From UHGV virus genome UHGV-0211740: 64,000 nt of DNA; one strand, 5' to 3'. A program made the position numbers and the translations under genes. Every line of letters starts with the position of its first letter. Within the stretch, counting starts at the first letter, position 1. The notes below the pieces were generated by a model. It was not told the DNA's origin. It was given only the letters and a program-made list of their open reading frames with translations, and searched no databases. Below are positions 18,383 through 32,010 of this stretch, in pieces. The DNA is from a virus.

Positions 18383-19069
18383 ATGGCAGAGATTAAGTCG
18401 GATGTCAACCACATCCACACTCTGCCAGATTTTGTTCAGGGAGGTCTTGACTACCTGCCTGGAGATTTTCTGGCTGAGAAGGTTAATTTGGTCACATTCT
18501 TAACCGTGTACCTTAAAAGGTTGGAGGATGTTGATAAGATGCTGGTAGGTTTGGCTGAAGGAAGATTGCTTAACAATGCCAGCGGAAGATACCTTGACGA
18601 GGTAGGAAATCAGCTTGGCATTCTTAGGAACGGGCTTTCAGATGCCGATTTTCGTGCCACACTAATTATTCAGCAGGCAGCATCCTCAAGGGGTGGGACT
18701 AGAGAAGATGTCATCTCCACTTTGCGACAATTGTTCGGAAGAAATAATTTCGATACGTGGAAAGGTGACAACTTCAGGTTTGACATAAATATTAGAAAAA
18801 CTTGCTTTGATATACTGCAGTCTATCGATCAGATCTTAGATATGCTACCGCTGCCTTGCCATTTGCGGCTTACAGAGTCGCAGGGGCAAGCTTTTGGCTT
18901 TGAAGGGGACTCAACAGCTCTCGGTTTCGGATCAGTGTGGGAAGAAAACCAGTTCGGAGTTGGTGGATTGGCTACTTTATTGTACGTTCCTGACGTAAGA
19001 CCTGATTGGGACACCACAACCATTTATTGTGAAAGTATTACAGTGAACGCAACTAGACAGGAGGGTTAA
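18383..19069 (+). CDS. hypothetical structural protein
   Basis: ORF track; operon context. Confidence 0.5.
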   Translation: MAEIKSDVNHIHTLPDFVQGGLDYLPGDFLAEKVNLVTFLTVYLKRLEDVDKMLVGLAEGRLLNNASGRYLDEVGNQLGILRNGLSDADFRATLIIQQAASSRGGTREDVISTLRQLFGRNNFDTWKGDNFRFDINIRKTCFDILQSIDQILDMLPLPCHLRLTESQGQAFGFEGDSTALGFGSVWEENQFGVGGLATLLYVPDVRPDWDTTTIYCESITVNATRQEG

Positions 19070-21141
19070 TGGCAACAGCTATTTTTAAACCTTACCGTGA
19101 TTACTCTACAATGGCTGCACGGTTTCATTACCGCACAGTTCAGGATACTGCCGTTCCAGGTAGGGATTATGATCATGTTGAGGGAGATGTAACTATTCCG
19201 GTTGGAGCAACCAGCATTGAGATCCCAGTAGAAATTGTTGACAAATTGCCCAACAGGTTGCCAAGAAGCTTCTTCATGGAGTTTTCATCAGAGTCTCAAG
19301 GGGTGATGATCGGGACGCAAAAAGCAAAATGCACAATAGTCTCGGATGAGAATCTTGACAGATTATCCTGGGATACTGTTGAGGAGAGAATGTTCCACCC
19401 AAGGTATTGGGTTACAACCACTCAACAAACTGAAAGTACCTGTATTGTTGCAGATAACAACTGTTGTATTAACCGTTTGGTGTCAAGAACGTATGGGGGT
19501 ATGGCAGGTTGCATTTGGGAAACAGTTGACAAGTATGACCATTTCGGTATTGGATTTGATGATCATTATGAAATGAGAAACACCAAGCTTTGGTTCAGAA
19601 TGTCAATAAACAACGCCACCAACTTCTCCACCCCTGAAAAGATGATTATGACTGTGGACCTTGTTGATGGCACAATCATCTATGTTCCTTTAGCTCAATA
19701 TGCCGCCAGCATTTCAGAAGATAAAAATGTTGCAGAGATTCATATTGACTTTGAGGATTGCATTGGGATGGACCAGCACAACAACATGATGGGTGTTGAT
19801 CCTCGGCAGGTGAGAAGGATTCTAATTCCGCTTATGCCTAAAGATTGGGTAAGCAACAGCACAGACCCAAGGACGGAAAATGTAGAGTGCGAGTTGCGCC
19901 TAGACCTGCTTCAGCCAGACACAGGCTGGAAAATGATGCAACTTAACAATATTCAGGTGAAAGAGCACGACGTCGGGATCTGCACTGCATATGATGATAT
20001 GTGGAACGTATCACCTTTGAGAGTGTTGAACAATATTAAGCGTTTGGGCTACACGGGGATCATAAATCACTATGTTGGGATGAGTCATTACTATGACTAC
20101 ACGTGGACTGGTACTCAATGGTCTATAAACAAAACAGGGGCCTTGAACGCAGCAGCTTATAAATGGCATGATGACTTTATGTATAATGCCAAACAGCATG
20201 GCTTCGAGGTTATGCAATCTGTAAGTTTTGAGCTTTACAGTGATGCCTGCCCGTTAGAATGGACCCAAAGAGATTGGAATGATAACTATGCTAAAACAGG
20301 GTACACCCCTTGCAGCTACCTTCTATCTCCGACCATTGAAGAGGGTATGAATTTCCTTACGGCAGTGTTTAAGAATTTTGCATCGGCAGCTATGCGAAAC
20401 AATCTGCCAGTGATTATGCAGATCGGGGAGCCGTGGTGGTGGTTCAACACCGACACTCGTAAACCTTGTATTTATGATTATCCTACAAAACAAGCGTTTT
20501 ATGACGAGACTGGAGAATATGCGCTAGATATTGGAACTATTGACGATCCTAAAACTGGCGGGGTTTACGACAAGTATGTAGCATTTTGTCGTGGCAAGCT
20601 CGGAGCTCGTATTGCAGCCATTTCAAAAGCAATCAAGGCACACGCTGCATCGGCTCAGATGACAGCTTTGCTGTTTTTCCCAACCATTATGGAAACCGAG
20701 CTTACGCAGAAACTGAACCTTGCTGACCAATATAAAAAGGAAGCAGGAGCTCTTGATTTCTTCTGCACTGAGTGCTACGATTGGGTGATGCAGGGCGGTA
20801 TTGAAAAGGCAAAAGAGTCTGTAAACATACCTATCGTTAAGTTAGGTTGGCAACCGTCTGAAATACAATACCTTGCAGGGTTCGTTCCTAGTAAAGAGCT
20901 TGCTCCGGTATATGGCTACGACCCAACCAGGAATTACCAAGAATTTTTATGGAGATGTATTTGCGGAAACATGGCAACCATAGAGTATAGATACCCTGAG
21001 GTAAAACAGTATGTGTGGGCATACCCACAAGTGATGTCTGATAGTATTACTGTTACTGCCAGGGAGTCTACTGTGCTTCATATGGGGCAGGTTGCTCTGA
21101 AAGGGTATGTAGAAGATGTTGTTCCGCCAGACTTCTCATAA
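19069..21141 (+). CDS. hypothetical large structural protein
   Basis: ORF track; AGGAGGG RBS; start overlaps upstream stop. Confidence 0.5.
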   Translation: MATAIFKPYRDYSTMAARFHYRTVQDTAVPGRDYDHVEGDVTIPVGATSIEIPVEIVDKLPNRLPRSFFMEFSSESQGVMIGTQKAKCTIVSDENLDRLSWDTVEERMFHPRYWVTTTQQTESTCIVADNNCCINRLVSRTYGGMAGCIWETVDKYDHFGIGFDDHYEMRNTKLWFRMSINNATNFSTPEKMIMTVDLVDGTIIYVPLAQYAASISEDKNVAEIHIDFEDCIGMDQHNNMMGVDPRQVRRILIPLMPKDWVSNSTDPRTENVECELRLDLLQPDTGWKMMQLNNIQVKEHDVGICTAYDDMWNVSPLRVLNNIKRLGYTGIINHYVGMSHYYDYTWTGTQWSINKTGALNAAAYKWHDDFMYNAKQHGFEVMQSVSFELYSDACPLEWTQRDWNDNYAKTGYTPCSYLLSPTIEEGMNFLTAVFKNFASAAMRNNLPVIMQIGEPWWWFNTDTRKPCIYDYPTKQAFYDETGEYALDIGTIDDPKTGGVYDKYVAFCRGKLGARIAAISKAIKAHAASAQMTALLFFPTIMETELTQKLNLADQYKKEAGALDFFCTECYDWVMQGGIEKAKESVNIPIVKLGWQPSEIQYLAGFVPSKELAPVYGYDPTRNYQEFLWRCICGNMATIEYRYPEVKQYVWAYPQVMSDSITVTARESTVLHMGQVALKGYVEDVVPPDFS

Positions 21142-22208: not shown

Positions 22209-22793
22209 ATGAAAATACTTCAAGAGTTTAAGCTTTACCAGCCAGGATCTGGCGAATACTCCGCCAATGAGGAAACCAAAGAGTTGACCCCTCAAGAGGT
22301 TGAGGATTACACTGCATACACAGGGTATTTTTTACGTAATGATGATGGAGATTGGTATGTGCAGTCCAGAACATTACGACAAGAAAACCCAGGGTGTATC
22401 TTCCTACTTGTTGACGAGAAGGGTATTCTTAAGACATCTACAGAAGAGCCTGATGCCTTATGGCCTGCTCCAGGTCTTCGTGTGGTTATCGCCAAAAAAG
22501 AAGAGGTACCAGAAAACATTATGCTCCACCACGACGCTTTGCGTTTAGTTGGTGATGAATTTGTCACAGATAATGAATTCTTTGTTCAACAGGCAGAGGG
22601 TGTCATAGAGACAGAACTTGCTTGGGCTACTGCTAGAATTGGTGCCTATCAAGACATGATTGACCTTGAATATGATCTTACTGATGACCAAAAACGCAAC
22701 ATCAGAGATTTGAAAATGTACAGGGTAAAACTTCTTGAAATAGATACATCTAAAGCCCCTGACATTTTCTTCCCGGAACGACCTACCCTCTAA
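22209..22793 (+). CDS. tail fibre assembly chaperone (Tfa/Caudo_TAP-like)
   Basis: C-terminal W..YR..LL..D...APDIFFPERP motif; immediately downstream of a fibre gene. Confidence 0.55.
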   Translation: MKILQEFKLYQPGSGEYSANEETKELTPQEVEDYTAYTGYFLRNDDGDWYVQSRTLRQENPGCIFLLVDEKGILKTSTEEPDALWPAPGLRVVIAKKEEVPENIMLHHDALRLVGDEFVTDNEFFVQQAEGVIETELAWATARIGAYQDMIDLEYDLTDDQKRNIRDLKMYRVKLLEIDTSKAPDIFFPERPTL

Positions 22794-24539: not shown

Positions 24540-26285
24540 ATGGCGCAAGACATGACAAGCTTCGAGCAGGCGGTAGATCAAGTAATTGTGGATTCTGAAC
24601 GTCTGCACTTGGTTGTCAACGGTAACGCTGTGGATGAAGTTGTCGTAGAGGATGGTACCACCATCCCTACGGTACGGAAAGCCATGCTTGACAACCTTTA
24701 TTTTAAAACGCCACCGATTCCTTGGGCGTACGGGGCATCCACAACAGTTTTTAACCAACTTTATGAGTTTAAAGGTGACACAGGTCCTCAGTGGTGGTAC
24801 GCGCCTGCGGCATCAAAAGCTAATCCGGTTAGAATGCCAGCAGACCCTTCACAATCTGCAAACTGGAGATTGTATACCGACTCTGCAGTAATGGCAAAGT
24901 ACTATGCAAAACTTAACAGCCCGAGGTTTGAAGGTGACCCGCGAGTACCTACACCTCCAATGGATGATAAGTCAGAGTCTATAGCAAACACGGAGTTTGT
25001 TGTTGACTACGTGGATAGTATATTTGAAGCTATGGAGGGGATGAAAGTTACCGTAGGTTCTTTGGTGGTAAAAGGTCTTTCAGAGCTTGCCAATACCATA
25101 GTTGGAGGGACTCTTACCTTACAAGGGCCTGTCAACGGAGCAGACTCTACGGCACGCTTCAGAAACCTAATCCTCACGGCAAATACTTCTACACTTACCT
25201 TCGCTTGGAGCGATCCTAAGCATACGGACTGGAAAAGCACAGAACTGCAGCCTCACGAGGTGTCAACGCACAGGGTTATAGCTGACACTATAACATCTGG
25301 AAAACCTGTGGCAAACAACAATGATGTGCATTTTAATGGTCTTGGAAACAACTTCTTTGACTATGTGTATATCCGTGGTAATGCCATGAAGGCGGCGACC
25401 GAACCAACACTGCAGGTTGATGGTATCACCAGGGTTAAAAACCTGGAAGTGACAGGCACTGTTACAGGGATAACCTACTCTGTTGATGGCACCATGATTT
25501 ACCCTAGCTACATCGAAAGCACAGGGGATGCACTGATCAATGGAGATTTAGAGGTTGGCGGGGCAATAGTTATTCGTGGTACAGCCTCTGTGCAGAACTT
25601 GTCCTTAAACACTCTGAGTGTGAACGAGCGTGCCACTTTTGAAGGAGAAGGAATTACAGCCAATAAGGGTGCAATTACCTCCCTGACTGCCACCACTTTA
25701 ACGGCAACAACTGCAAACGCTGAAAACTGCAACGTTAGCAGAAACTTGCAAGTTAATGGGGATGTGAGTTTGAACGCAGCAGGGACTGGAACTACCTACC
25801 TCCACAACCTTGAAATATCAGGTGCCGTCACCGGGTGGTTGCCAGACTTCTCTAATGTTAACTTTGTCTGTAATGGTATCAACTCTAGTGGTAAGATAAC
25901 CACCTCTCAAGGAATTGAGGCTGGTAAAACTATCACTGCCCCTGCTTTCCACGCAGGAAAAGTAGACTTTGACTTAGAAGAGGTTGATGCATCCAGTGGG
26001 ACATGGACACCTAACGGGCAGGCCAATATGTATGTTGTCCACGCAAAAGGTGACTTTACAATAGGTCAGTGGCCTGGAACATCGGCTGAAGATAAACCTT
26101 ACCCGTTCACTGCAATCATCTATGTCATTCAGGATGCTGTAGGTCACAACGTGACTTTACACGATAAGTATGCCATCTTGTCGGCAACGCCTGTTATTAA
26201 CAACAAGGCCAACAGCGTCACCTTACTACAATTGACATATTGTGGTGTTGGTGATATTGTGGATGTGGTTATTGCACAACGTTAA
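24540..26285 (+). CDS. tail fibre protein
   Basis: AAGGAG RBS; N-terminal region ending SIANTEFV as in long tail fibre proximal domains; Gly/Thr-rich body. Confidence 0.6.
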   Translation: MAQDMTSFEQAVDQVIVDSERLHLVVNGNAVDEVVVEDGTTIPTVRKAMLDNLYFKTPPIPWAYGASTTVFNQLYEFKGDTGPQWWYAPAASKANPVRMPADPSQSANWRLYTDSAVMAKYYAKLNSPRFEGDPRVPTPPMDDKSESIANTEFVVDYVDSIFEAMEGMKVTVGSLVVKGLSELANTIVGGTLTLQGPVNGADSTARFRNLILTANTSTLTFAWSDPKHTDWKSTELQPHEVSTHRVIADTITSGKPVANNNDVHFNGLGNNFFDYVYIRGNAMKAATEPTLQVDGITRVKNLEVTGTVTGITYSVDGTMIYPSYIESTGDALINGDLEVGGAIVIRGTASVQNLSLNTLSVNERATFEGEGITANKGAITSLTATTLTATTANAENCNVSRNLQVNGDVSLNAAGTGTTYLHNLEISGAVTGWLPDFSNVNFVCNGINSSGKITTSQGIEAGKTITAPAFHAGKVDFDLEEVDASSGTWTPNGQANMYVVHAKGDFTIGQWPGTSAEDKPYPFTAIIYVIQDAVGHNVTLHDKYAILSATPVINNKANSVTLLQLTYCGVGDIVDVVIAQR

Positions 26286-26293
26286 TATATCTG

Positions 26294-26320
26294 ACCGCTC
26301 CTGACGGGGCGGTTTTCTTA
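26294..26320 (+). terminator. rho-independent terminator
   Basis: 8-bp stem with TGAC loop then TTTTCTT. Confidence 0.55.
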
Positions 26321-26333
26321 TCTGGAGAACACA

Positions 26334-29300
26334 ATGCTTCCAATCCCTTTGCTAAAACTTGGTCGTCATTTCCTCGATAAGAGGGGTGGAGTTAAGGAAC
26401 TTGCTGTTCTGTCATACCCAATAGACAACAGTGACGGTACAAGCACTACAGTAGCCTATGTAAATAGCTTAGCTATACTTTTTGATAACGGTCAACTCAA
26501 TATTACAGGTTACAACAGGTTCGGGGAGTGCAGGACTGGAGATCTTGACACGATAAACTACCCAAATGAGGCTGCCTGGAACGTTGACCATGTGTGGAGA
26601 GCAGACCGTGCGTTTGTGATCCGAACTTTTGATAATCAGTTTTTCTACATCGGCTGCACTGCAGGGCTTATTGGGTCTGATGCTGCAGGTGGTAATGATG
26701 TTTGTGTAAGGGAGTGGACACCTCTTCCTGAACAGATTGTTAAAGGATTGCACCTTGACACCCACCCAGAGCGCCTTGTTGAGGTGATGGGCGGTATTAA
26801 CAACACCGTCTGGGTTATGGCAGAGGCAGAAGGCACTGGCATTTTACACCTGTACGGATCTGGTAACAACACCTACGGATCTTTGCATGTGGATAAAAAC
26901 CAGCATGCAACCCCTGTAAAGATTGGTGAAACATCGGAAAATCCTGAAACAGGTCCTTGGAAAAACCCAAGCATCAACTGTGAGGTGCATGATAACTCTG
27001 TTATTTTCGGCGGTCCTAGAGGTTTCTGGATTGCGGGATACGACTTTCTGAGAAACAACAGCAGAAACGACCTTGTTTGGCCTCCTGCTCAGATTACCCG
27101 TGACGATTTGAGAGGTATTCCTGCAGATGAGGAGTGGAAAGGGTTCATGTGCGGTCCGAACGGGGCAGTGGTTGTAACACAAAGAATGCACAGACCTGAT
27201 GACCAGCAACTTGTTAACGTATTCTACGGGCAAAACATCTGGGGAGATGATACATGGCGTTCCTTAAATCTTACCTACACCCATGAAGTAATAATGGCGC
27301 GTGGGTACGGAACAAGCGGCATTTTCTTCAATAATGGCACTAAGCAGTATCGTGGATTCTCTCGCAACTTATGTAATGATATTGGTGCACAGTCTGCAAA
27401 CAATAGCCCTAGGGATAATTTTATCCACTATCAAGCCCTTGCCACAGCTAAATATGTTGAGCAAAGACTGCCAGTCAGCTGGACAGAGAGTGTTTATTTC
27501 CAGGGCATTCACAGAGAGGGTTTTTTAGGGACCTTTACTGTTGTTAATGGTAAACTTTGGTGGTCAGGTATCCCAAGGGGAAGTTTTGCAGGCTCTAATA
27601 ACTTGTTTGGGGGTAGACTTAATAGTCAAGGGTTCACAGAGGTTCCTGAGAATTGGTATAAAAATGTTCCAGTAGACAGTTGGGATATTGAGGATATTTT
27701 TGACGTTAACGGTGTTAGCAGCGTTAGCAATATTTACATTGGTGACACGGTCAAGATGAAATTGAAGCCTCAGCCAGAGGGTGCTACGTTCATTATTGAC
27801 AAGATTGAACTGGTAAATGCTGCAGGCACGGTTGTTACAGATGCAAATTATCAATTCTCCACCAACTGGAACCACGGTGGTGCCAACGAAGTTATTGTTA
27901 CCCAGTATAACAGGAATGTTAACAGACGTGGCCTGTACTCTGTAAAAATAACCTATCATGACAAGCATGGCACAGGTAGAACTCACACGACAAGGACTTT
28001 GAACTGGAACACCATAGTTCCTGCGTATCCGTCTAACGGTAAGTGGCATACTGTCGGTAGAAACAAGCAGTTCCATGTTAACGATACTGTGTACTTTGGG
28101 CTGAATGGTACTCAGCCTGCAGTAGAAGGGGATACATCGTATATGGTCAGACTCCATAGAATGGATGCTGGATCAGTAACTTATGATGTTACCCAAGAGA
28201 TTTATGATCAGCGACGAAATACCTACAATAACTTGGTGCAGACACAGGCCTTATGGGAGTTCAACCCCAACGGCAGAGGTGGTAAAATGTTGCAGGTCAA
28301 CGAACAAAACGGGACATCGTTGACTGTACACGAACATTCAGATCCTTGGCCTGATCCTGGAAAACCTCACCCAGGCGCTCGTACACTAAAAATTGTCAGC
28401 CATGACGTAGGATATTTCGGAATACGCTGGGAAGCTACGGTAAGATATGCCGACGGGACGACAAACAATATTGGGATTACTCTTGGCGGCACCAGTGAGG
28501 ATAACTCGCTGAAAATTGCCTACACACCCAGAGGCATCTCTATTGACAATATGGATGTTGTTCGCAATGGTTACGGAGATGTAAACATCAAAGTTACTCT
28601 TGGTGAGCATCTCGGCGGAGAGAGGATCATTATGTATGCCTTTGATCATGACCCGCGAACCAACGGAACTTATGCGAATCAGGCCTGGAGTTACCTGATA
28701 AGTGCGCCTGAGCCAAATACTAAAGAATTCTACTACGGTATGAAGCGAGATGTGTGCAAGAAAACAGGAACACATGACTGGATTGCTATCTGCGTTAAAG
28801 ATGAGAGAACAGCTTGGGATGAGCCTGTTAACAGATGGTTCATAGGTATTCCCACTCGAAGTGATAAATACGTTGAAGAATATATTGTGTGCATGGGTGG
28901 CACCAACCTCAATATGTGTTGGAACGAGGATGCAAACAAATACTCTGATTATGACTATATGAGGGACTACTCTTGCAATCAATGGTTTAACCAAACCGGG
29001 TATGCTAATCGGCAGTCAAGAGTAAACCCTGCAATCTTTACAGATACGCAGGTTTTCTTGACAAAACAGGCAAACGAGGTTCAGACCTTCAAGAACAACT
29101 ATGACCCTAACAAGTGGTTCTATAACTGCTATGGGGCATTTTTCTGGGGACCCGGGGAATTACCTGGTGGTGGCTCTTGTTTTGAGGCTGCAACTTACGC
29201 CAGTGACAGATTTATGGGCCAGGTCAAGAAATACAAGATAATTCCAGGGCCTGAAACTTTAGGTAACGCTGTCGACCCCTATATCATCATGAGTGATCTA

Positions 29301-31967
29301 AGATCGAACATGGATGGAACATCCATATCTATGCAAGTTCCGGTAACAAACGGATACAAGCGTGTTGTGATGATCATTAAGTGCGATCTGATAGGTAAGC
29401 AAGTTCTTGCAGAGAACGGAACTTCCACCCACCTATTTGAGACTGCTCTGCACTATCAGTTTGCTGATTCCCCTTTTGCAGGGGATAAGAGAATATCTGA
29501 CACAGACGCTGTGCGATGCAAGAAATTTATGCTAGGTGGTGGGTGGTGGTGGTATGAATTTGACTTAACAGACAAATTCACCGACACGTCTAAAGTAGTG
29601 ACGGGGCTTCGTCTAGACCTTGGCGAAAACATGCACAAAAGTGTTTGTGATGGCACCTACGGTGACCCAACAATCTACTTAAAGTATGTCTCTTTTGAGC
29701 ACCCAGAGGATGTTGTTTATGGTCCAAAACTGAGACTGTTTGGCAATTGGATTGCTAAAGACAGGGTAGGTATGGGCAAGAAGGTAAGAGGTTTCTTAAT
29801 GGATGCCGGTACAGAGGACATGCTAGTTAATGCAGTGTGGCCTGAATTACCCGGAACTCAGTGGAACAACTCCGCTAAATCTATAAACTGGTTCAATATC
29901 CACAGGGCTATGTGGACAACCAACTGTTATCTGTGGAAAGAGCTGAATGACGGCGCTTTCGGGTTCACAGGTGGCAGAAGAATGGCAATCATTTGCTGGA
30001 CAACGTTGCAAAGATGTTATGAACATGACTACGAGATTGGAGGTAGGGCATGGAAAAATATTAGGGATAGAATCATAACCAACTTTGCAGATCCTAACGG
30101 TGGTGGAGCGTATGGCTTTGACTGCAGCAGGCTCATCCATTTGAACGGATCCTCTGCCTACAAGAAAGAAGGTTACTCTGGGTCTATGATAGAATGGGGC
30201 CTGGTGAAAGATGCTCGCGTGCTGATGGGTCAACAACTTGCTGCTGCAATAGGTCCTAATGCAGTGCAATCTGTTAAACCTGCGTGGTTTGATATCCCAT
30301 TGTGGTCATCCGGTACACCAGGGACCGCTGCAATCAACCCGACCACGGGGGATCTGGAAATATCTTGGGAGGACTTGAAGCAGGTTGGAGGCTGGGATAA
30401 AACAGGGTATCAGGTTCAGTGGTGGAGGGCTGACGGATCTTTAGCTGCTGATGAGTTTGTTAAGGACAACTTCTACACCATGTCCTCTGCAAAAGCACAG
30501 CAACTGTTTGGTCAGGCTACTCCGTCAACGATTACCATGTCCATGTGCTGTAAAGACAACAGGACTGGAGCTTTGGGGCCAAGGGTTGCTAAAGTTTTCT
30601 CAGGTATTAAATGGAATCTCCCTGTTCAAAGTGTTTCATGGAAGCAAATAGGTGATAACAAGCTACTAGTTACTCCTGCCTGCCAGTTCAACGCAACCCT
30701 CAACGTTGATCCGGCTGTTGCAGCAAACTCAGCTAAAGCTTCTGACTTCTCTGTGTCTAACACTGCCATGGCAGATGTGAGAAAGATTGATACACTGAAT
30801 GCCAGAATTACCTGTAAAAACACTTACGGCACATTCCAGATCATCAACAACTTCACAGATACTGATTCTAAGGTAGTGAGGACAGCAAGCCAGACTATGC
30901 AGTTGGGAACTCTGGCATACTCTGCCCTGATCACTGAACAATCTCCTACCCTTCAGGGTGGAGGTGTTGGTAAGTTGATCACAACACCTGTGTGGAAGCC
31001 AAATGAGTGGGTTGTGTTTGATTTGACTGTAGACTTCTCCAGTGACAATAACTGGACATGGGTAAGGAATTGCTTGTCACAGTTGATGGGTGGTCCAAGC
31101 TCTGTTAGTGATAGCCACGACTCTACGGACCCGAGCGTGTTCCAGGTGGGTAAAACTCATCCAGAAACTGGGGCACAGTTGCCTGACAGGAAGTATGCTT
31201 TGGTTTGCATCTCCAACGGCAAGGCAGATGTAACCTTCTCAGGGACACACGCATATAACGGCACTTACAACTTCTCTAAAAAGTACAGCCTCAAGGCAGG
31301 TAACATTGTAGATGAAGTTGGTGCGTTGTATAATCCAGGTAACGGCATAGGGATTGTGGGTGGTAAACTGCAGATGCAGGAACCTTCTATTACCCCTTCC
31401 AATGTGCCAGGGATTAGAAAGACTTGGGAAAGTAGTAATACTAACATTGCAACAGTGGATGCTACCACAGGATTGGTAACATTTAAAGCCCCTGGTAATG
31501 TCACTATAAAGTTTGTAGTTACGGATGATGCAGGCCGCAAAACGTCTTCAACATCTTTCACTGTAAGACAGATGGCACCTCAGTGGAGAATGTGGATAGG
31601 CACAGCAACAAACGGGGCATACCCTAATCCGGCAGGGACTTCTGGTATGAAGACTTTCTCTACAAGCAAGCCGATGGAGTACGGCAGCGGTCCTAAGGTA
31701 GGGCAGATGGTGTACTTTGGTGCATATATTCCTGAAATTATAGGGCTTCCGAGAAGTCAGCTTCAGTTGCTGTTTGGGGCTGGTGTTGACGATCTTGCCA
31801 CTTTCGGGTATAGCGACAACATCGAGGCTGCAAGAAGTTCAGGATGGGTAGGGTTCAGAATGGAGTCTGGAAAGGAAGGCAGGATTCTAGGGACAGCCTC
31901 TATAGGTGTTATGTTCCCTGGTGACCAGCAGTATCGTCTGGGAGCCTACGCAACTTTCTCTCTTTAG
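26334..31967 (+). CDS. giant virion protein (1877 aa) with C-terminal Big_2-like Ig domain
   Basis: Single uninterrupted ORF; segment IRKTWESSNTNIATVDATTGLVTFKAPGNVTIKFVVTDDAGRKTSSTSFTV matches Big_2 pattern. Confidence 0.6.
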   Translation: MLPIPLLKLGRHFLDKRGGVKELAVLSYPIDNSDGTSTTVAYVNSLAILFDNGQLNITGYNRFGECRTGDLDTINYPNEAAWNVDHVWRADRAFVIRTFDNQFFYIGCTAGLIGSDAAGGNDVCVREWTPLPEQIVKGLHLDTHPERLVEVMGGINNTVWVMAEAEGTGILHLYGSGNNTYGSLHVDKNQHATPVKIGETSENPETGPWKNPSINCEVHDNSVIFGGPRGFWIAGYDFLRNNSRNDLVWPPAQITRDDLRGIPADEEWKGFMCGPNGAVVVTQRMHRPDDQQLVNVFYGQNIWGDDTWRSLNLTYTHEVIMARGYGTSGIFFNNGTKQYRGFSRNLCNDIGAQSANNSPRDNFIHYQALATAKYVEQRLPVSWTESVYFQGIHREGFLGTFTVVNGKLWWSGIPRGSFAGSNNLFGGRLNSQGFTEVPENWYKNVPVDSWDIEDIFDVNGVSSVSNIYIGDTVKMKLKPQPEGATFIIDKIELVNAAGTVVTDANYQFSTNWNHGGANEVIVTQYNRNVNRRGLYSVKITYHDKHGTGRTHTTRTLNWNTIVPAYPSNGKWHTVGRNKQFHVNDTVYFGLNGTQPAVEGDTSYMVRLHRMDAGSVTYDVTQEIYDQRRNTYNNLVQTQALWEFNPNGRGGKMLQVNEQNGTSLTVHEHSDPWPDPGKPHPGARTLKIVSHDVGYFGIRWEATVRYADGTTNNIGITLGGTSEDNSLKIAYTPRGISIDNMDVVRNGYGDVNIKVTLGEHLGGERIIMYAFDHDPRTNGTYANQAWSYLISAPEPNTKEFYYGMKRDVCKKTGTHDWIAICVKDERTAWDEPVNRWFIGIPTRSDKYVEEYIVCMGGTNLNMCWNEDANKYSDYDYMRDYSCNQWFNQTGYANRQSRVNPAIFTDTQVFLTKQANEVQTFKNNYDPNKWFYNCYGAFFWGPGELPGGGSCFEAATYASDRFMGQVKKYKIIPGPETLGNAVDPYIIMSDLRSNMDGTSISMQVPVTNGYKRVVMIIKCDLIGKQVLAENGTSTHLFETALHYQFADSPFAGDKRISDTDAVRCKKFMLGGGWWWYEFDLTDKFTDTSKVVTGLRLDLGENMHKSVCDGTYGDPTIYLKYVSFEHPEDVVYGPKLRLFGNWIAKDRVGMGKKVRGFLMDAGTEDMLVNAVWPELPGTQWNNSAKSINWFNIHRAMWTTNCYLWKELNDGAFGFTGGRRMAIICWTTLQRCYEHDYEIGGRAWKNIRDRIITNFADPNGGGAYGFDCSRLIHLNGSSAYKKEGYSGSMIEWGLVKDARVLMGQQLAAAIGPNAVQSVKPAWFDIPLWSSGTPGTAAINPTTGDLEISWEDLKQVGGWDKTGYQVQWWRADGSLAADEFVKDNFYTMSSAKAQQLFGQATPSTITMSMCCKDNRTGALGPRVAKVFSGIKWNLPVQSVSWKQIGDNKLLVTPACQFNATLNVDPAVAANSAKASDFSVSNTAMADVRKIDTLNARITCKNTYGTFQIINNFTDTDSKVVRTASQTMQLGTLAYSALITEQSPTLQGGGVGKLITTPVWKPNEWVVFDLTVDFSSDNNWTWVRNCLSQLMGGPSSVSDSHDSTDPSVFQVGKTHPETGAQLPDRKYALVCISNGKADVTFSGTHAYNGTYNFSKKYSLKAGNIVDEVGALYNPGNGIGIVGGKLQMQEPSITPSNVPGIRKTWESSNTNIATVDATTGLVTFKAPGNVTIKFVVTDDAGRKTSSTSFTVRQMAPQWRMWIGTATNGAYPNPAGTSGMKTFSTSKPMEYGSGPKVGQMVYFGAYIPEIIGLPRSQLQLLFGAGVDDLATFGYSDNIEAARSSGWVGFRMESGKEGRILGTASIGVMFPGDQQYRLGAYATFSL

Positions 31968-31980
31968 CAAGCAGTAAATA

Positions 31981-32010
31981 AAAAAGGGGCCGTTTGGCCC
32001 CTTTCTTTTT
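31981..32010. terminator. bidirectional terminator between convergent gene blocks
   Basis: AAAAA-GGGGCC-GTTT-GGCCCC-TTTCTTTTT between + gene ending 31967 and - gene ending 32015. Confidence 0.65.

What the first reader, a model, noticed from the sequence alone, without database searches (positions are those of the whole stretch)
26334..31967. 1877-aa virion protein with an Ig-like domain
One uninterrupted ORF of 5.6 kb ends the structural block. It has a clear Big_2-like segment near the C-terminus. Its function (adhesin, depolymerase, decoration) cannot be assigned by eye.
Basis: partly seen in the sequence, partly recalled or inferred. Interest (0 to 1): 0.45.

Follow-up and report, generated by a model that had tools for sequence, protein, structure and literature searches.

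The report
Giant modular tail-fibre adhesin of rV5-like phage
The 5.6-kb ORF is a real, single, strongly conserved gene: the ortholog of gene 27 of E. coli phage rV5, an already catalogued but uncharacterised giant protein built like a string of sugar-binding and Ig-like modules. It most likely hangs on a tail fibre as a dispensable adhesin.

Summary
It is one 1877-aa ORF (26334-31967, +) with a good Shine-Dalgarno, a Big_2 domain at aa 1685-1732, and a bidirectional terminator and strand switch behind it.

The window is a Vequintavirus (rV5-like myophage). The ORF is the ortholog of rV5 gp27 (95% aa identity), present in more than 100 genomes and annotated as an 'Ig-like domain protein' or 'lateral tail fiber protein with intimin domain'. 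It is not a merged artefact: dN/dS is about 0.05 in every 150-codon window.

New here is the anatomy:
- a conserved N-terminal M-x-P-I-P peptide;
- an RCC1-like beta-propeller (aa ~20-440);
- three Ig/FN3 domains;
- a divergent module homologous to the esterase-like and FN3 domains of the phage N4 receptor-binding 'sheath' protein gp65, split by an inserted beta-sandwich;
- further Ig-like domains including Big_2, and a small C-terminal domain.

The same slot, the last gene of the tail-fibre module, holds shuffled relatives in five genera. All carry the MxPIP start, and all follow a fibre gene with a conserved C-terminal head.

Best reading: an accessory, monomer-type glycan-binding distal fibre or adhesin that is non-essential in the lab. 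The gene is deleted in APCEc02 and its syntenic counterpart is broken in phi92. Virion location and ligand remain unproven. The gene is already known; interest is modest.

The parts
26334..31967 (+). Whole gene, ortholog of rV5 gp27 (1877 aa plus stop)
   Evidence: 94.9% aa identity to rv5_gp027; phrog_15684 full length, E 0; dN/dS ~0.05
26293..26314 (+). Terminator-like hairpin (9-bp stem, then a T-run) between the upstream fibre gene and this gene; possible attenuator
   Evidence: near-identical in rV5 and EmilHeitz (one change at the 5' edge of the stem). Function inferred only.
26324..26327 (+). Shine-Dalgarno GGAG, 6 nt before the ATG
   Evidence: read directly from the sequence
26334..26354 (+). 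N-terminal M-L-P-I-P-L-L motif (M-x-P-I-P-[LIC]-[LF]); proposed docking peptide
   Evidence: The same start occurs in the syntenic proteins of five genera whatever domain follows; it is unique in the window. Docking role inferred.
26391..27653 (+). RCC1-like beta-propeller domain (aa ~20-440); the most conserved part of the family
   Evidence: hhalign of the family versus the phAPEC8-like 890-aa protein: 99.6%, E 1e-24, aa 1-492 to 1-449. That protein and PVP-SE1 gp40 hit Pfam RLD at E 1e-10, the RCC1 repeat above cut-off, and phrog_4219 at E 1e-34 to 1e-40. Weak RLD hits in 12 of 16 family members. AF2 failed here (pLDDT ~25).
27687..28853 (+). Three tandem Ig/FN3-like beta-sandwich domains (aa 452-840)
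   Evidence: AF2 pLDDT 60-80; Foldseek PDB hits to contactin/FN3 arrays, Hoc and an ice-binding adhesin, E down to 8e-8; weak Bact_surface_Ig-like hits in 12 of 16 members
28863..29213 (+). First part of the N4-gp65-type esterase-like module (aa 844-960), with a block-I-like motif YIVCMGGTNLNM; Cys/Trp-rich
   Evidence: hhalign aa 844-865 to 'DSFIKEVIVFAGQDNVNAHFTE' of the domain profile, E 0.004-0.016, collinear with the main hit. G855, G856, T857 and N858 are invariant. Weak on its own. AF2 low confidence.
29226..29708 (+). Inserted beta-sandwich domain (aa 965-1125); candidate carbohydrate-binding module; variable between subfamilies
   Evidence: AF2 pLDDT 70-85, all-beta; absent from the gp65-type domain alignment; identity drops to 14-26% in one subgroup. 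CBM role inferred.
29772..30593 (+). Second part of the esterase-like module (aa 1147-1330) plus its FN3-like follower (aa 1331-1420); homologous to N4 gp65 and to the phi92-like 'tail carbohydrate esterase'
30681..31343 (+). Ig-like beta domains (aa 1450-1670); the most variable stretch of the family
   Evidence: AF2 beta domains; 12-40% identity to distant members; Foldseek hits to NUP210, cadherins and S-layer Ig arrays
31386..31529 (+). Big_2 (bacterial Ig-like group 2) domain, aa 1685-1732
31581..31964 (+). C-terminal beta domain (aa 1750-1877); occurs as two alleles within the genus
   Evidence: phrog_215 match across aa 1592-1876, E 7e-47; AF2 moderate confidence; ~96% and ~78% identity groups
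31983..32004 (.). Bidirectional intrinsic terminator closing the tail module
   Evidence: annotated on both strands in rV5
24540..26285 (+). Upstream partner gene (rV5 gp28-like trimeric fibre, 581 aa). Its last ~100 aa (25968-26282) are conserved across five genera; proposed docking head.
   Evidence: phrog_4549 tail fibre. BLASTP: full length to PVP-SE1 gp41 and Av-05_105 (42-44%), but only aa 477-581 (~51%) to phi92 gp151, ALITA and the phAPEC8-like fibre. Partner role inferred.

Best explanation
The ORF encodes the Vequintavirus ortholog of rV5 gp27: a giant, modular, probably single-chain (not classical trimeric) accessory component of the lateral tail-fibre apparatus.

Proposed mechanism:
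- The conserved N-terminal MxPIP peptide, with the RCC1-like propeller behind it, docks the protein on the conserved C-terminal head of the fibre encoded by the gene just upstream (gp28-like).
- From there, a flexible chain of Ig/FN3 domains projects three elements: an N4-gp65-type carbohydrate-esterase-like module carrying an inserted beta-sandwich, further Ig-like domains including Big_2, and a small variable C-terminal domain.
- These modules bind surface polysaccharide, either host exopolysaccharide/LPS-associated glycans or environmental glycans such as mucus. Binding is weak and multivalent, and raises the rate of productive encounters before the dedicated receptor-binding fibres engage.
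- The protein is dispensable for plaque formation in the laboratory.

Shown: gene integrity and constraint, domain anatomy, homologies, synteny, and natural deletions.
Inferred: virion location, docking partner, monomeric state, glycan ligand, and lack of catalysis.
For: Integrity and selection.

Tail-module position, with the same slot occupied in five genera: Vequintavirus, Avunavirus, Seunavirus, Phapecoctavirus and Justusliebigvirus.

All slot proteins start M-[LYF]-P-I-P whether a propeller or a Big_2 domain follows. All follow a fibre gene whose last ~100 aa stay ~51% identical even where the rest of the fibre is unrelated.

N-terminal domain is RCC1-like.

The central module is homologous to N4 gp65 and the phi92-like 'tail carbohydrate esterase' by three routes:
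- pairwise BLASTP, E 4e-7;
- profile-profile, 92-95% probability, E 4e-8 to 6e-7, with negative controls;

N4 gp65 is itself a single-chain 10-domain receptor-binding protein (PMC13434306).

The remaining confident AF2 domains match monomeric Ig/FN3 arrays of adhesins, S-layers, Hoc, lambda gpV and intimin. No coiled-coil, beta-helix or S74 chaperone domain was found.

Dispensability: viable phage APCEc02 lacks aa ~434-1415. The syntenic gene in phi92, only partly homologous, is broken by a 218-nt deletion relative to ALITA.

Weak MS detection of rV5 gp27 in virions.
Against: - No direct, good-quality evidence that the protein is in the virion. The rV5 peptides are non-tryptic and poorly ranked.
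- I could not verify that the fibre with the unassigned distal density (class TC8) is the gp28 homolog; no supplement was held.
- AF2 gave pLDDT ~25 for the propeller and for the helical parts of the central module, so those folds rest on homology alone.
- The oligomeric state was not tested.
- The most conserved part is the N-terminal propeller. That fits an anchor, but it would also fit a conserved ligand-binding or enzymatic role.
- High conservation within the genus (90-97%) is unlike host-range-determining receptor-binding proteins.
- A single-sequence HMMER (phmmer) scan of aa 131-1330 found no relative outside the family. All functional transfer is therefore from remote homologs.
Confidence: 0.55

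Rival explanations
1. It is an active virion-borne enzyme: a carbohydrate esterase/deacetylase (or other depolymerase) that modifies host exopolysaccharide, O-antigen or ECA/NGR-type glycans so that the phage can move through the glycan layer. The Ig-like domains act only as spacers.
For: The central module is homologous to the N4-gp65-type domain. That domain gives weak Pfam SASA (sialate O-acetylesterase) hits in 2 of 7 representatives, best E 8e-4. It is annotated 'tail carbohydrate esterase' in phages ALITA and KMB37. The block-I and block-III-like motifs (GGTN, GTED) are invariant in the family.
Against: The position of the nucleophilic Ser (AGESQV in N4 gp65 copy 1) is Thr in all 16 family members and Asp in ALITA and Av-05. 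The His of the 'RIHY' stretch falls in a gap in this family. The protein itself gives no Pfam, NCBIfam or PDB sequence hit in this region. The SASA link is below the Pfam threshold even in the homologs. The whole module is deleted in a viable phage.
Confidence: 0.2
2. It is a Hoc-like decoration or environmental adhesin located on the head or neck rather than on a tail fibre. It would serve adherence to mucus or particles (the 'BAM' type role of phage Ig-like domains) and not host recognition.
For: The C-terminal 285 aa match phrog_215, 'structural protein with Ig domain', category head and packaging. Foldseek lists RB49 Hoc among the matches. The phi92 paper notes that gp151, whose last ~100 aa match the upstream fibre here, resembles a head spike of phage Pa223. 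The protein is strongly conserved within the genus, unlike host-range determinants, and is dispensable.
Against: The gene sits at the end of the baseplate/tail-fibre operon in five genera. Its N-terminal region belongs to phrog_11922, 'tail protein'. The central module's solved relative is a tail protein, N4 gp65. Head genes lie elsewhere: rV5 gp60-64.
Confidence: 0.15
3. The long ORF is an annotation artefact: two or more genes fused, or a gene normally expressed as separate products from internal starts.
For: A few GenBank records annotate it as 2-3 ORFs: ime, ECP26, YP-6, APCEc02.
Against: 108 genomes carry it as one frame. 15 protein clusters of 1711-1976 aa are collinear over the full length. 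dN/dS is ~0.05 with no relaxed junction wherever it could be computed. Homology units cross any plausible split point. In 'ime' the split coincides with small indels relative to the window ORF (5 gap positions in the alignment); in APCEc02 with a 2.9-kb deletion.
Confidence: 0.03

Closest known systems
rV5 gp27 (rv5_gp027, YP_002003529; phrog_15684) and its Vequintavirus orthologs, e.g. BASEL Bas49 bas49_0041 'lateral tail fiber protein with intimin domain'
   Same: Orthologous: 90-97% aa identity, same length, same position and same flanking genes.
   Different: Nothing essential differs. The window carries one of the two C-terminal alleles and a mosaic of recombined segments. No function has been shown experimentally for any ortholog in the papers I could read.
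Phage N4 gp65, the non-contractile tail sheath / receptor-binding protein (PDB 9LC0, 9YF4; Pfam NCTSP families; phrog_15324)
   Different: Only ~20% identity. gp65 has two copies of the module and four FN3-like repeats. Here there is one copy, split by a 160-aa beta-sandwich, with Thr in place of the Ser of gp65 copy 1. gp65's N-terminal NCTSP_N and TIM-barrel domains are not in this protein but in another protein of the same phage, the gp34-like protein. gp65 wraps a podovirus tail and binds NfrA; none of that can be transferred.
phi92-like 'tail carbohydrate esterase' (ALITA WWP17711, 719 aa; phi92 gp152+gp153; Av-05_00106; phrog_32204)
   Same: Same genomic slot, same MxPIP start, Big_2 domains, and the gp65-type module.
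   Different: About 650-720 aa, no RCC1-like propeller, no inserted beta-sandwich, and Asp at the nucleophile position. The gene is disrupted in phi92 itself.
phAPEC8-like and PVP-SE1 gp40 'tail protein' (phrog_11922)
   Same: Same slot, MxPIP start, and homologous RCC1-like propeller followed by an Ig-like domain: hhalign 99.6% over ~450 aa.
   Different: 600-890 aa. They continue into Big_2 and, in the phAPEC8-like protein, a BspA-type LRR domain instead of the gp65-type module.
Accessory Ig-like (Big_2/FN3) domains on phage structural proteins: lambda gpV C-terminus, T4 Hoc (Fraser et al. 2006, cited in PMC7344957); bacterial intimin/invasin stalks
   Same: Big_2 domain and strings of beta-sandwich domains thought to bind carbohydrates weakly.
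   Different: Those are one to four domains appended to a capsid or tail-tube protein. Here, about eight such domains are combined with a propeller and an esterase-like module in a dedicated 208-kDa protein. The similarity to intimin is confined to 39 residues.

Membership tests
rV5 gp27 family (phrog_15684) | Full-length collinear similarity to the family profile, and the same genomic slot | tested here: met
   phrog_15684 E 0, 4444 bits, 1-1876 to 1-1877; synteny with rV5, EmilHeitz and a divergent metagenomic relative
Big_2 (PF02368) bacterial Ig-like domain | Score above the Pfam gathering cut-off | tested here: met
   33 bits versus 22.8, aa 1685-1732; the confident AF2 beta-sandwich matches lambda gpV C-terminal domain and intimin
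Intimin | Full-length match to the intimin model (inverse-autotransporter beta-barrel, LysM, C-type-lectin tip) | tested here: not met
   NCBIfam intimin_all 21 bits versus a cut-off of 1400, only aa 1695-1733; the PDB intimin match covers 39 residues. The 'intimin domain' of some annotations is just the Big_2 fold.
RCC1-like beta-propeller (Pfam RCC1 / WD40_RLD) | Significant match of the protein itself to the RCC1/RLD models | tested here: not met
   The window protein scores only RCC1_2 E 0.11. Family members score RLD E 1e-4 to 3e-3, far below the domain cut-off.
RCC1-like beta-propeller (Pfam RCC1 / WD40_RLD) | Homology over the whole domain to proteins that do match RCC1 models | tested here: met
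   hhalign 99.6%, E 1e-24, 414 columns to the phAPEC8-like protein. That protein and PVP-SE1 gp40 hit RLD at E 1e-10, the RCC1 repeat at 24-36 bits (cut-off 21.7), and phrog_4219 at E 1e-34 to 1e-40.
RCC1-like beta-propeller (Pfam RCC1 / WD40_RLD) | Seven-bladed propeller fold / detectable internal repeats | tested here: inconclusive
   AF2 pLDDT ~25 for aa 1-434. hhalign self-comparison found no significant repeat, E 0.72. Seven G-x-N-x-x-G-like motifs are seen by eye only.
N4 gp65-type esterase-like + FN3 module (phrog_15324 / PDB 9LC0) | Sequence-profile homology with correct domain order | tested here: met
   hhalign 92-95%, E 4e-8 to 6e-7, 228-234 columns; other regions of the same protein give E 0.46-0.65. 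BLASTP to phi92 gp153 E 4e-7. The register is consistent through ALITA to N4. HMM-versus-sequence searches are negative.
N4 gp65-type esterase-like + FN3 module (phrog_15324 / PDB 9LC0) | Structural similarity to the solved protein | tested here: met
SGNH/SASA carbohydrate esterase (PF03629) | Catalytic Ser in block I, plus His/Asp, and a Pfam match | tested here: not met
   No SASA hit for this protein. Invariant Thr857 sits at the aligned Ser position and there is no aligned His. Homologs hit SASA only at E 8e-4 to 0.02, below the cut-off.
Classical trimeric tail fibre / tailspike | Trimerisation elements: coiled coil, triple beta-helix or beta-helix, S74 or other intramolecular chaperone, or a dedicated assembly chaperone gene | tested here: not met
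   No such Pfam or PHROG hit. AF2 confident parts are separate beta-sandwiches whose matches are monomeric Ig/FN3 arrays. The chaperone gene in the window (22209-22793) sits next to the short-fibre genes. Oligomeric state was not directly tested.
Virion structural protein | Detected in purified virions | tested here: inconclusive
   rV5 MS: 3 peptides, 9 spectra, 3.1% coverage, non-tryptic, Sp ranks 1, 9 and 14.

The most novel reading that the evidence does not exclude
The protein defines a class of non-trimeric, single-chain distal tail-fibre subunits. They would plug into the conserved C-terminal head of a trimeric fibre through an N-terminal MxPIP peptide. This would be a 'cargo slot' shared by five genera of rV5/phi92-like myophages, into which propellers, Big_2 strings, LRRs and N4-gp65-type pseudo-esterase lectin modules are shuffled. 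It would also be the unassigned density seen at the tip of a Vequintavirus fibre by cryo-EM.
Probability: 0.3. Interest if true: 0.5.

Novelty: already known. Interest (0 to 1): 0.3.

Why it matters
rV5-like phages are among the commonest E. coli phages and are used in therapy and biocontrol, yet which gene builds which of their many fibres is still unresolved (PMC8594841, PMC12143355, PMC13450770).

This 208-kDa protein is the largest product of the tail module and has no assigned role. Three results give structural and genetic work a concrete hypothesis:
- it combines an RCC1-like propeller with an N4-gp65-type module;
- it shares a docking-type N-terminus with the slot proteins of four other genera;
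- it can be lost without killing the phage.

The hypothesis is that it is an optional, exchangeable distal adhesin on the gp28-type fibre. If right, the slot could be used to engineer adsorption properties without touching essential fibres. For the scan itself, the finding is an ordinary, already catalogued gene.

Tried and rejected
1. AlphaFold2 in two segments, using the 16-sequence family alignment. Mean pLDDT was 48 and 55. The propeller and the helical parts of the central module were not resolved, so no fold claim is made from them.

2. Three searches of the 5.8-billion-protein index. The full protein and the family alignment each returned the same 15 clusters; the search with aa 1-450 returned only three fragments of the family.

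3. A single-sequence HMMER (phmmer) scan of aa 131-1330 against 1.84 billion representatives. Nothing was found outside the family.

4. Sequence and profile searches of the PDB. The whole protein and the family profile gave only Big_2-level hits. The profile of aa 1126-1440 gave nothing at E 10.

6. Self-comparison for propeller blades: not significant.

7. phi92 gp152 as an N-terminal homolog: only the MYPIPL start matches.

8. The 'intimin domain' label was rejected as a family assignment.

9. The promoter-like site at 26232-26260 is not conserved (TTAACA in rV5 and EmilHeitz), and site counts equal the shuffle expectation.

10. Literature. No functional study of gp27 was found. RBPseg does not mention the 'intimin-domain' protein in its main text and its supplements are not held. 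The phi92 and PVP-SE1 proteome papers are not held.
Full report
**1. What is there**

The window is part of a Vequintavirus (rV5-like E. coli myophage). The 5.6-kb region matches 121 phage records at 80-94% nucleotide identity, and 108 of them cover it in one piece.

The ORF runs 26334-31967 on the + strand and encodes 1877 aa. GGAG sits 6 nt before the ATG. A hairpin with flanking T-runs follows the stop at 31983-32004; rV5 annotates the equivalent as a bidirectional terminator. GC skew and coding strand flip there.

Upstream are baseplate wedge, short-tail-fibre, chaperone and fibre genes.

The protein is the ortholog of rV5 gp27 (1878 aa, 94.9% identity). GenBank names for it include 'Ig-like domain-containing protein', 'structural protein with Ig domain' and, in the BASEL phages, 'lateral tail fiber protein with intimin domain'.

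**2. Is it one real gene?**

Yes. NG86 dN/dS against EmilHeitz and rV5 is 0.048 and 0.047 overall. It is between 0.00 and 0.15 in every 150-codon window where it could be computed; dS was saturated in two windows of the rV5 comparison. dS itself swings from 0.02 to above 1, which indicates a recombination mosaic.

Fifteen 90%-identity clusters of 1711-1976 aa are collinear with it over their whole length. A 44%-identical metagenomic relative sits in the same gene order.

The few records that split the gene differ from the window ORF by small indels ('ime', 5 gap positions) or by a deletion (APCEc02).

**3. Anatomy**

| Region (aa) | What it is | Main evidence |
|---|---|---|
| 1-7 | MLPIPLL motif | |
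| ~20-440 | RCC1-like beta-propeller | |
| 452-840 | three Ig/FN3-like domains | |
| ~844-1420 | N4-gp65-type esterase-like module plus FN3-like follower | |
| 965-1125 | beta-sandwich inserted in that module | |
| 1450-1877 | four or five beta domains, including Big_2 and a C-terminal domain | |

(a) aa 1-7, MLPIPLL. The syntenic proteins of four other genera start MYPIPLF, MYPIPCF, MFPIPIF and MYPIPCL, whether the next domain is a propeller or a Big_2 domain. The motif occurs nowhere else in the window.

(b) aa ~20-440, the most conserved part of the family (70-80% identity to the distant members).
- The region itself barely touches RCC1 models.
- It is clearly homologous over its whole length to the N-terminal ~420 aa of the phAPEC8-like 890-aa 'tail protein': hhalign 99.6%, E 1e-24.
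- That protein and PVP-SE1 gp40 match the Pfam RCC1-like domain (E 1e-10), the RCC1 repeat above threshold, and the PHROG 'regulator of chromosome condensation' families at E 1e-34 to 1e-40.
- I therefore read it as an RCC1-like beta-propeller. AlphaFold did not fold it (pLDDT ~25) and internal repeats are not statistically detectable.

(c) aa 452-840: three beta-sandwich domains (pLDDT 60-80). They match tandem FN3/Ig arrays, including Hoc.

(d) aa ~844-1420: a divergent copy of the module that occurs twice in phage N4 gp65 and once in the phi92-like 'tail carbohydrate esterase'. The evidence is independent on three levels:
- BLASTP to phi92 gp153 gives E 4e-7 over 216 residues.
- Profile-profile comparison of aa 1126-1440 of the family with a 6-7-sequence alignment of the domain gives 92-95% probability, E 4e-8 to 6e-7, over 228-234 columns. 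Three other regions of the same protein give E 0.46-0.65.

Upstream and collinear, YIVCMGGTNLNM (aa 850-861) aligns with the block-I strand-turn VIVFAGQDNVNA of the domain. This alignment is weak on its own (E 0.004-0.016).

Between the two halves lies a confident 160-aa beta-sandwich (aa 965-1125, pLDDT 70-85). The relatives lack it, and it is the most variable part between subfamilies.

The domain type gives sub-threshold SASA (sialate O-acetylesterase) hits in relatives only. In this family the residue aligned with the Ser of gp65 copy 1 is an invariant Thr, and no His aligns with the relatives' 'RIHY'. Catalysis is therefore doubtful.

(e) aa 1450-1877: four or five further beta domains.
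- aa 1450-1650 is the most variable stretch of the family.
- The Big_2 domain is at aa 1685-1732.
- A C-terminal domain exists as two alleles in the genus.
- Fold matches are NUP210, cadherins, S-layer proteins, lambda gpV and intimin.

No coiled coil, beta-helix or chaperone domain typical of trimeric fibres was found.

**4. The genomic slot**

In Vequintavirus, Avunavirus (Av-05), Seunavirus (PVP-SE1), Phapecoctavirus (ukendt/phAPEC8) and Justusliebigvirus (ALITA/phi92), the last gene of the tail-fibre module encodes an MxPIP protein of 600-1900 aa built from a shuffled set of modules:
- propeller + Big_2 (+ LRR) in PVP-SE1 and phAPEC8-like phages;
- Big_2 + gp65-type module in ALITA and Av-05;
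- all of these in the rV5-like phages.

The slot gene is always preceded by the gp28-type fibre gene. That fibre is conserved end to end within Vequintavirinae. Against the phi92- and phAPEC8-like fibres, only its last ~100 residues are conserved (~51% identity).

Co-conservation of a fibre's C-terminal head with the N-terminus of the next gene product is the pattern expected for a docking pair. This is inference, not a tested interaction.

[quoted passage not shown] I could not confirm that this fibre is the gp28 homolog.

**5. Dispensability**

Phage APCEc02 lacks codons ~434-1415 (2943 nt) and is annotated as three ORFs.

In phi92, the cryo-EM model phage, the intact 719-aa gene seen in ALITA is broken by a 218-nt deletion into gp152 and gp153. 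This may be why neither product appears in the phi92 structures.

The protein is therefore not needed for plaque formation in the laboratory.

**6. Virion membership**

The rV5 virion MS lists gp27, but with three non-tryptic, poorly ranked peptides. That is on a par with two presumably non-structural proteins in the same list. I treat virion association as likely from context, not shown.

**7. Interpretation**

- Best supported (0.55): an accessory, probably single-chain, glycan-binding distal subunit or adhesin of the lateral fibre apparatus. It would be anchored by its N-terminus and present an esterase-like (possibly pseudo-enzyme) module and Ig-like domains to surface polysaccharide. N4 gp65, its only solved relative, is likewise a single-chain 10-domain receptor-binding protein (PMC13434306).
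- Active esterase/depolymerase (0.2).
- Hoc-like decoration or environmental adhesin located elsewhere on the particle (0.15).
- Annotation artefact (0.03).

**8. Novelty**

The gene and its Big_2 domain have been in GenBank since the rV5 genome, so the finding is already known.

What I did not find in the papers I could read is:
- the decomposition into propeller, gp65-type module and insert;
- the MxPIP / fibre-head co-conservation across five genera;
- the observation that model phages carry broken copies.

These are modest, testable leads for phage structural biology rather than a surprise.

Noticed in passing
window 26293-26314: A terminator-like hairpin (ACCGCTCC-TGAC-GGGGCGGT followed by a T-run) sits in the 48-nt gap between the gp28-like fibre gene and this ORF. 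It is near-identical in rV5 and EmilHeitz (one change at the 5' edge of the stem). It may attenuate read-through so that the giant protein is made in lower amounts than the fibre.
   Followed up: partly
L004:11321-12983 (phi92) versus L007:2499-4658 (ALITA): phi92 gp152 and gp153 are the two halves of one 719-aa gene that is intact in phage ALITA. phi92 lacks ALITA nt 591-808 (218 nt, frame-breaking). The reference phage used for cryo-EM thus carries a broken copy of the slot gene.
   Followed up: yes
L013:2501-5173 (phage APCEc02): This cultured Vequintavirus has a 2943-nt internal deletion of the gene (aa ~434-1415) and annotates the remainder as three ORFs. The central Ig and esterase-like modules are therefore dispensable.
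   Followed up: yes
window 25968-26282 (last ~100 aa of the gp28-like fibre): Only this C-terminal head is conserved (~51% identity) in the otherwise unrelated fibres phi92 gp151, the ALITA fibre and the phAPEC8-like gp232. It always lies next to an MxPIP gene, which suggests a docking pair.
   Followed up: partly
window 19069-21141 (rV5 gp34-like, 690 aa); L012:1-1763: The homolog of this neighbouring fibre protein carries Pfam NCTSP_N and TIM-barrel_NCTSP, the N-terminal modules of N4 gp65. The later gp65 modules are in the 1877-aa protein. The domains of the N4 receptor-binding protein are thus spread over two proteins of this phage.
   Followed up: no
GenBank MG065639-MG065677 (hits H9, H19, H20, H24, H25, H27 and others): Some 15-16 records named 'Campylobacter phage', with host C. 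jejuni, are 92-96% identical to this E. coli phage gene. Four others match phi92 gp153. The host labels look doubtful (contaminating coliphages?).
   Followed up: no
window 26334-31967: Synonymous divergence to EmilHeitz and rV5 varies from 0.02 to above 1 between adjacent 450-nt windows, while dN/dS stays ~0.05. This points to a recombination mosaic within the genus.
   Followed up: partly
window 31107-31964 (last 286 aa): Across Vequintavirus genomes this C-terminal part falls into two discrete identity groups (~95-100% and ~77-80%), whereas the rest of the protein varies more smoothly. This indicates an allelic swap of the distal end.
   Followed up: no
P0001 (precomputed Pfam): The 96%-identical cluster representative carries a precomputed Pfam hit, PF26918. 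The gp28 homolog in L012 carries PF26208/PF26209 (Phage_phiTE_241_N/C). These newer families are absent from the Pfam copy I could scan, so their definitions could not be checked.
   Followed up: no
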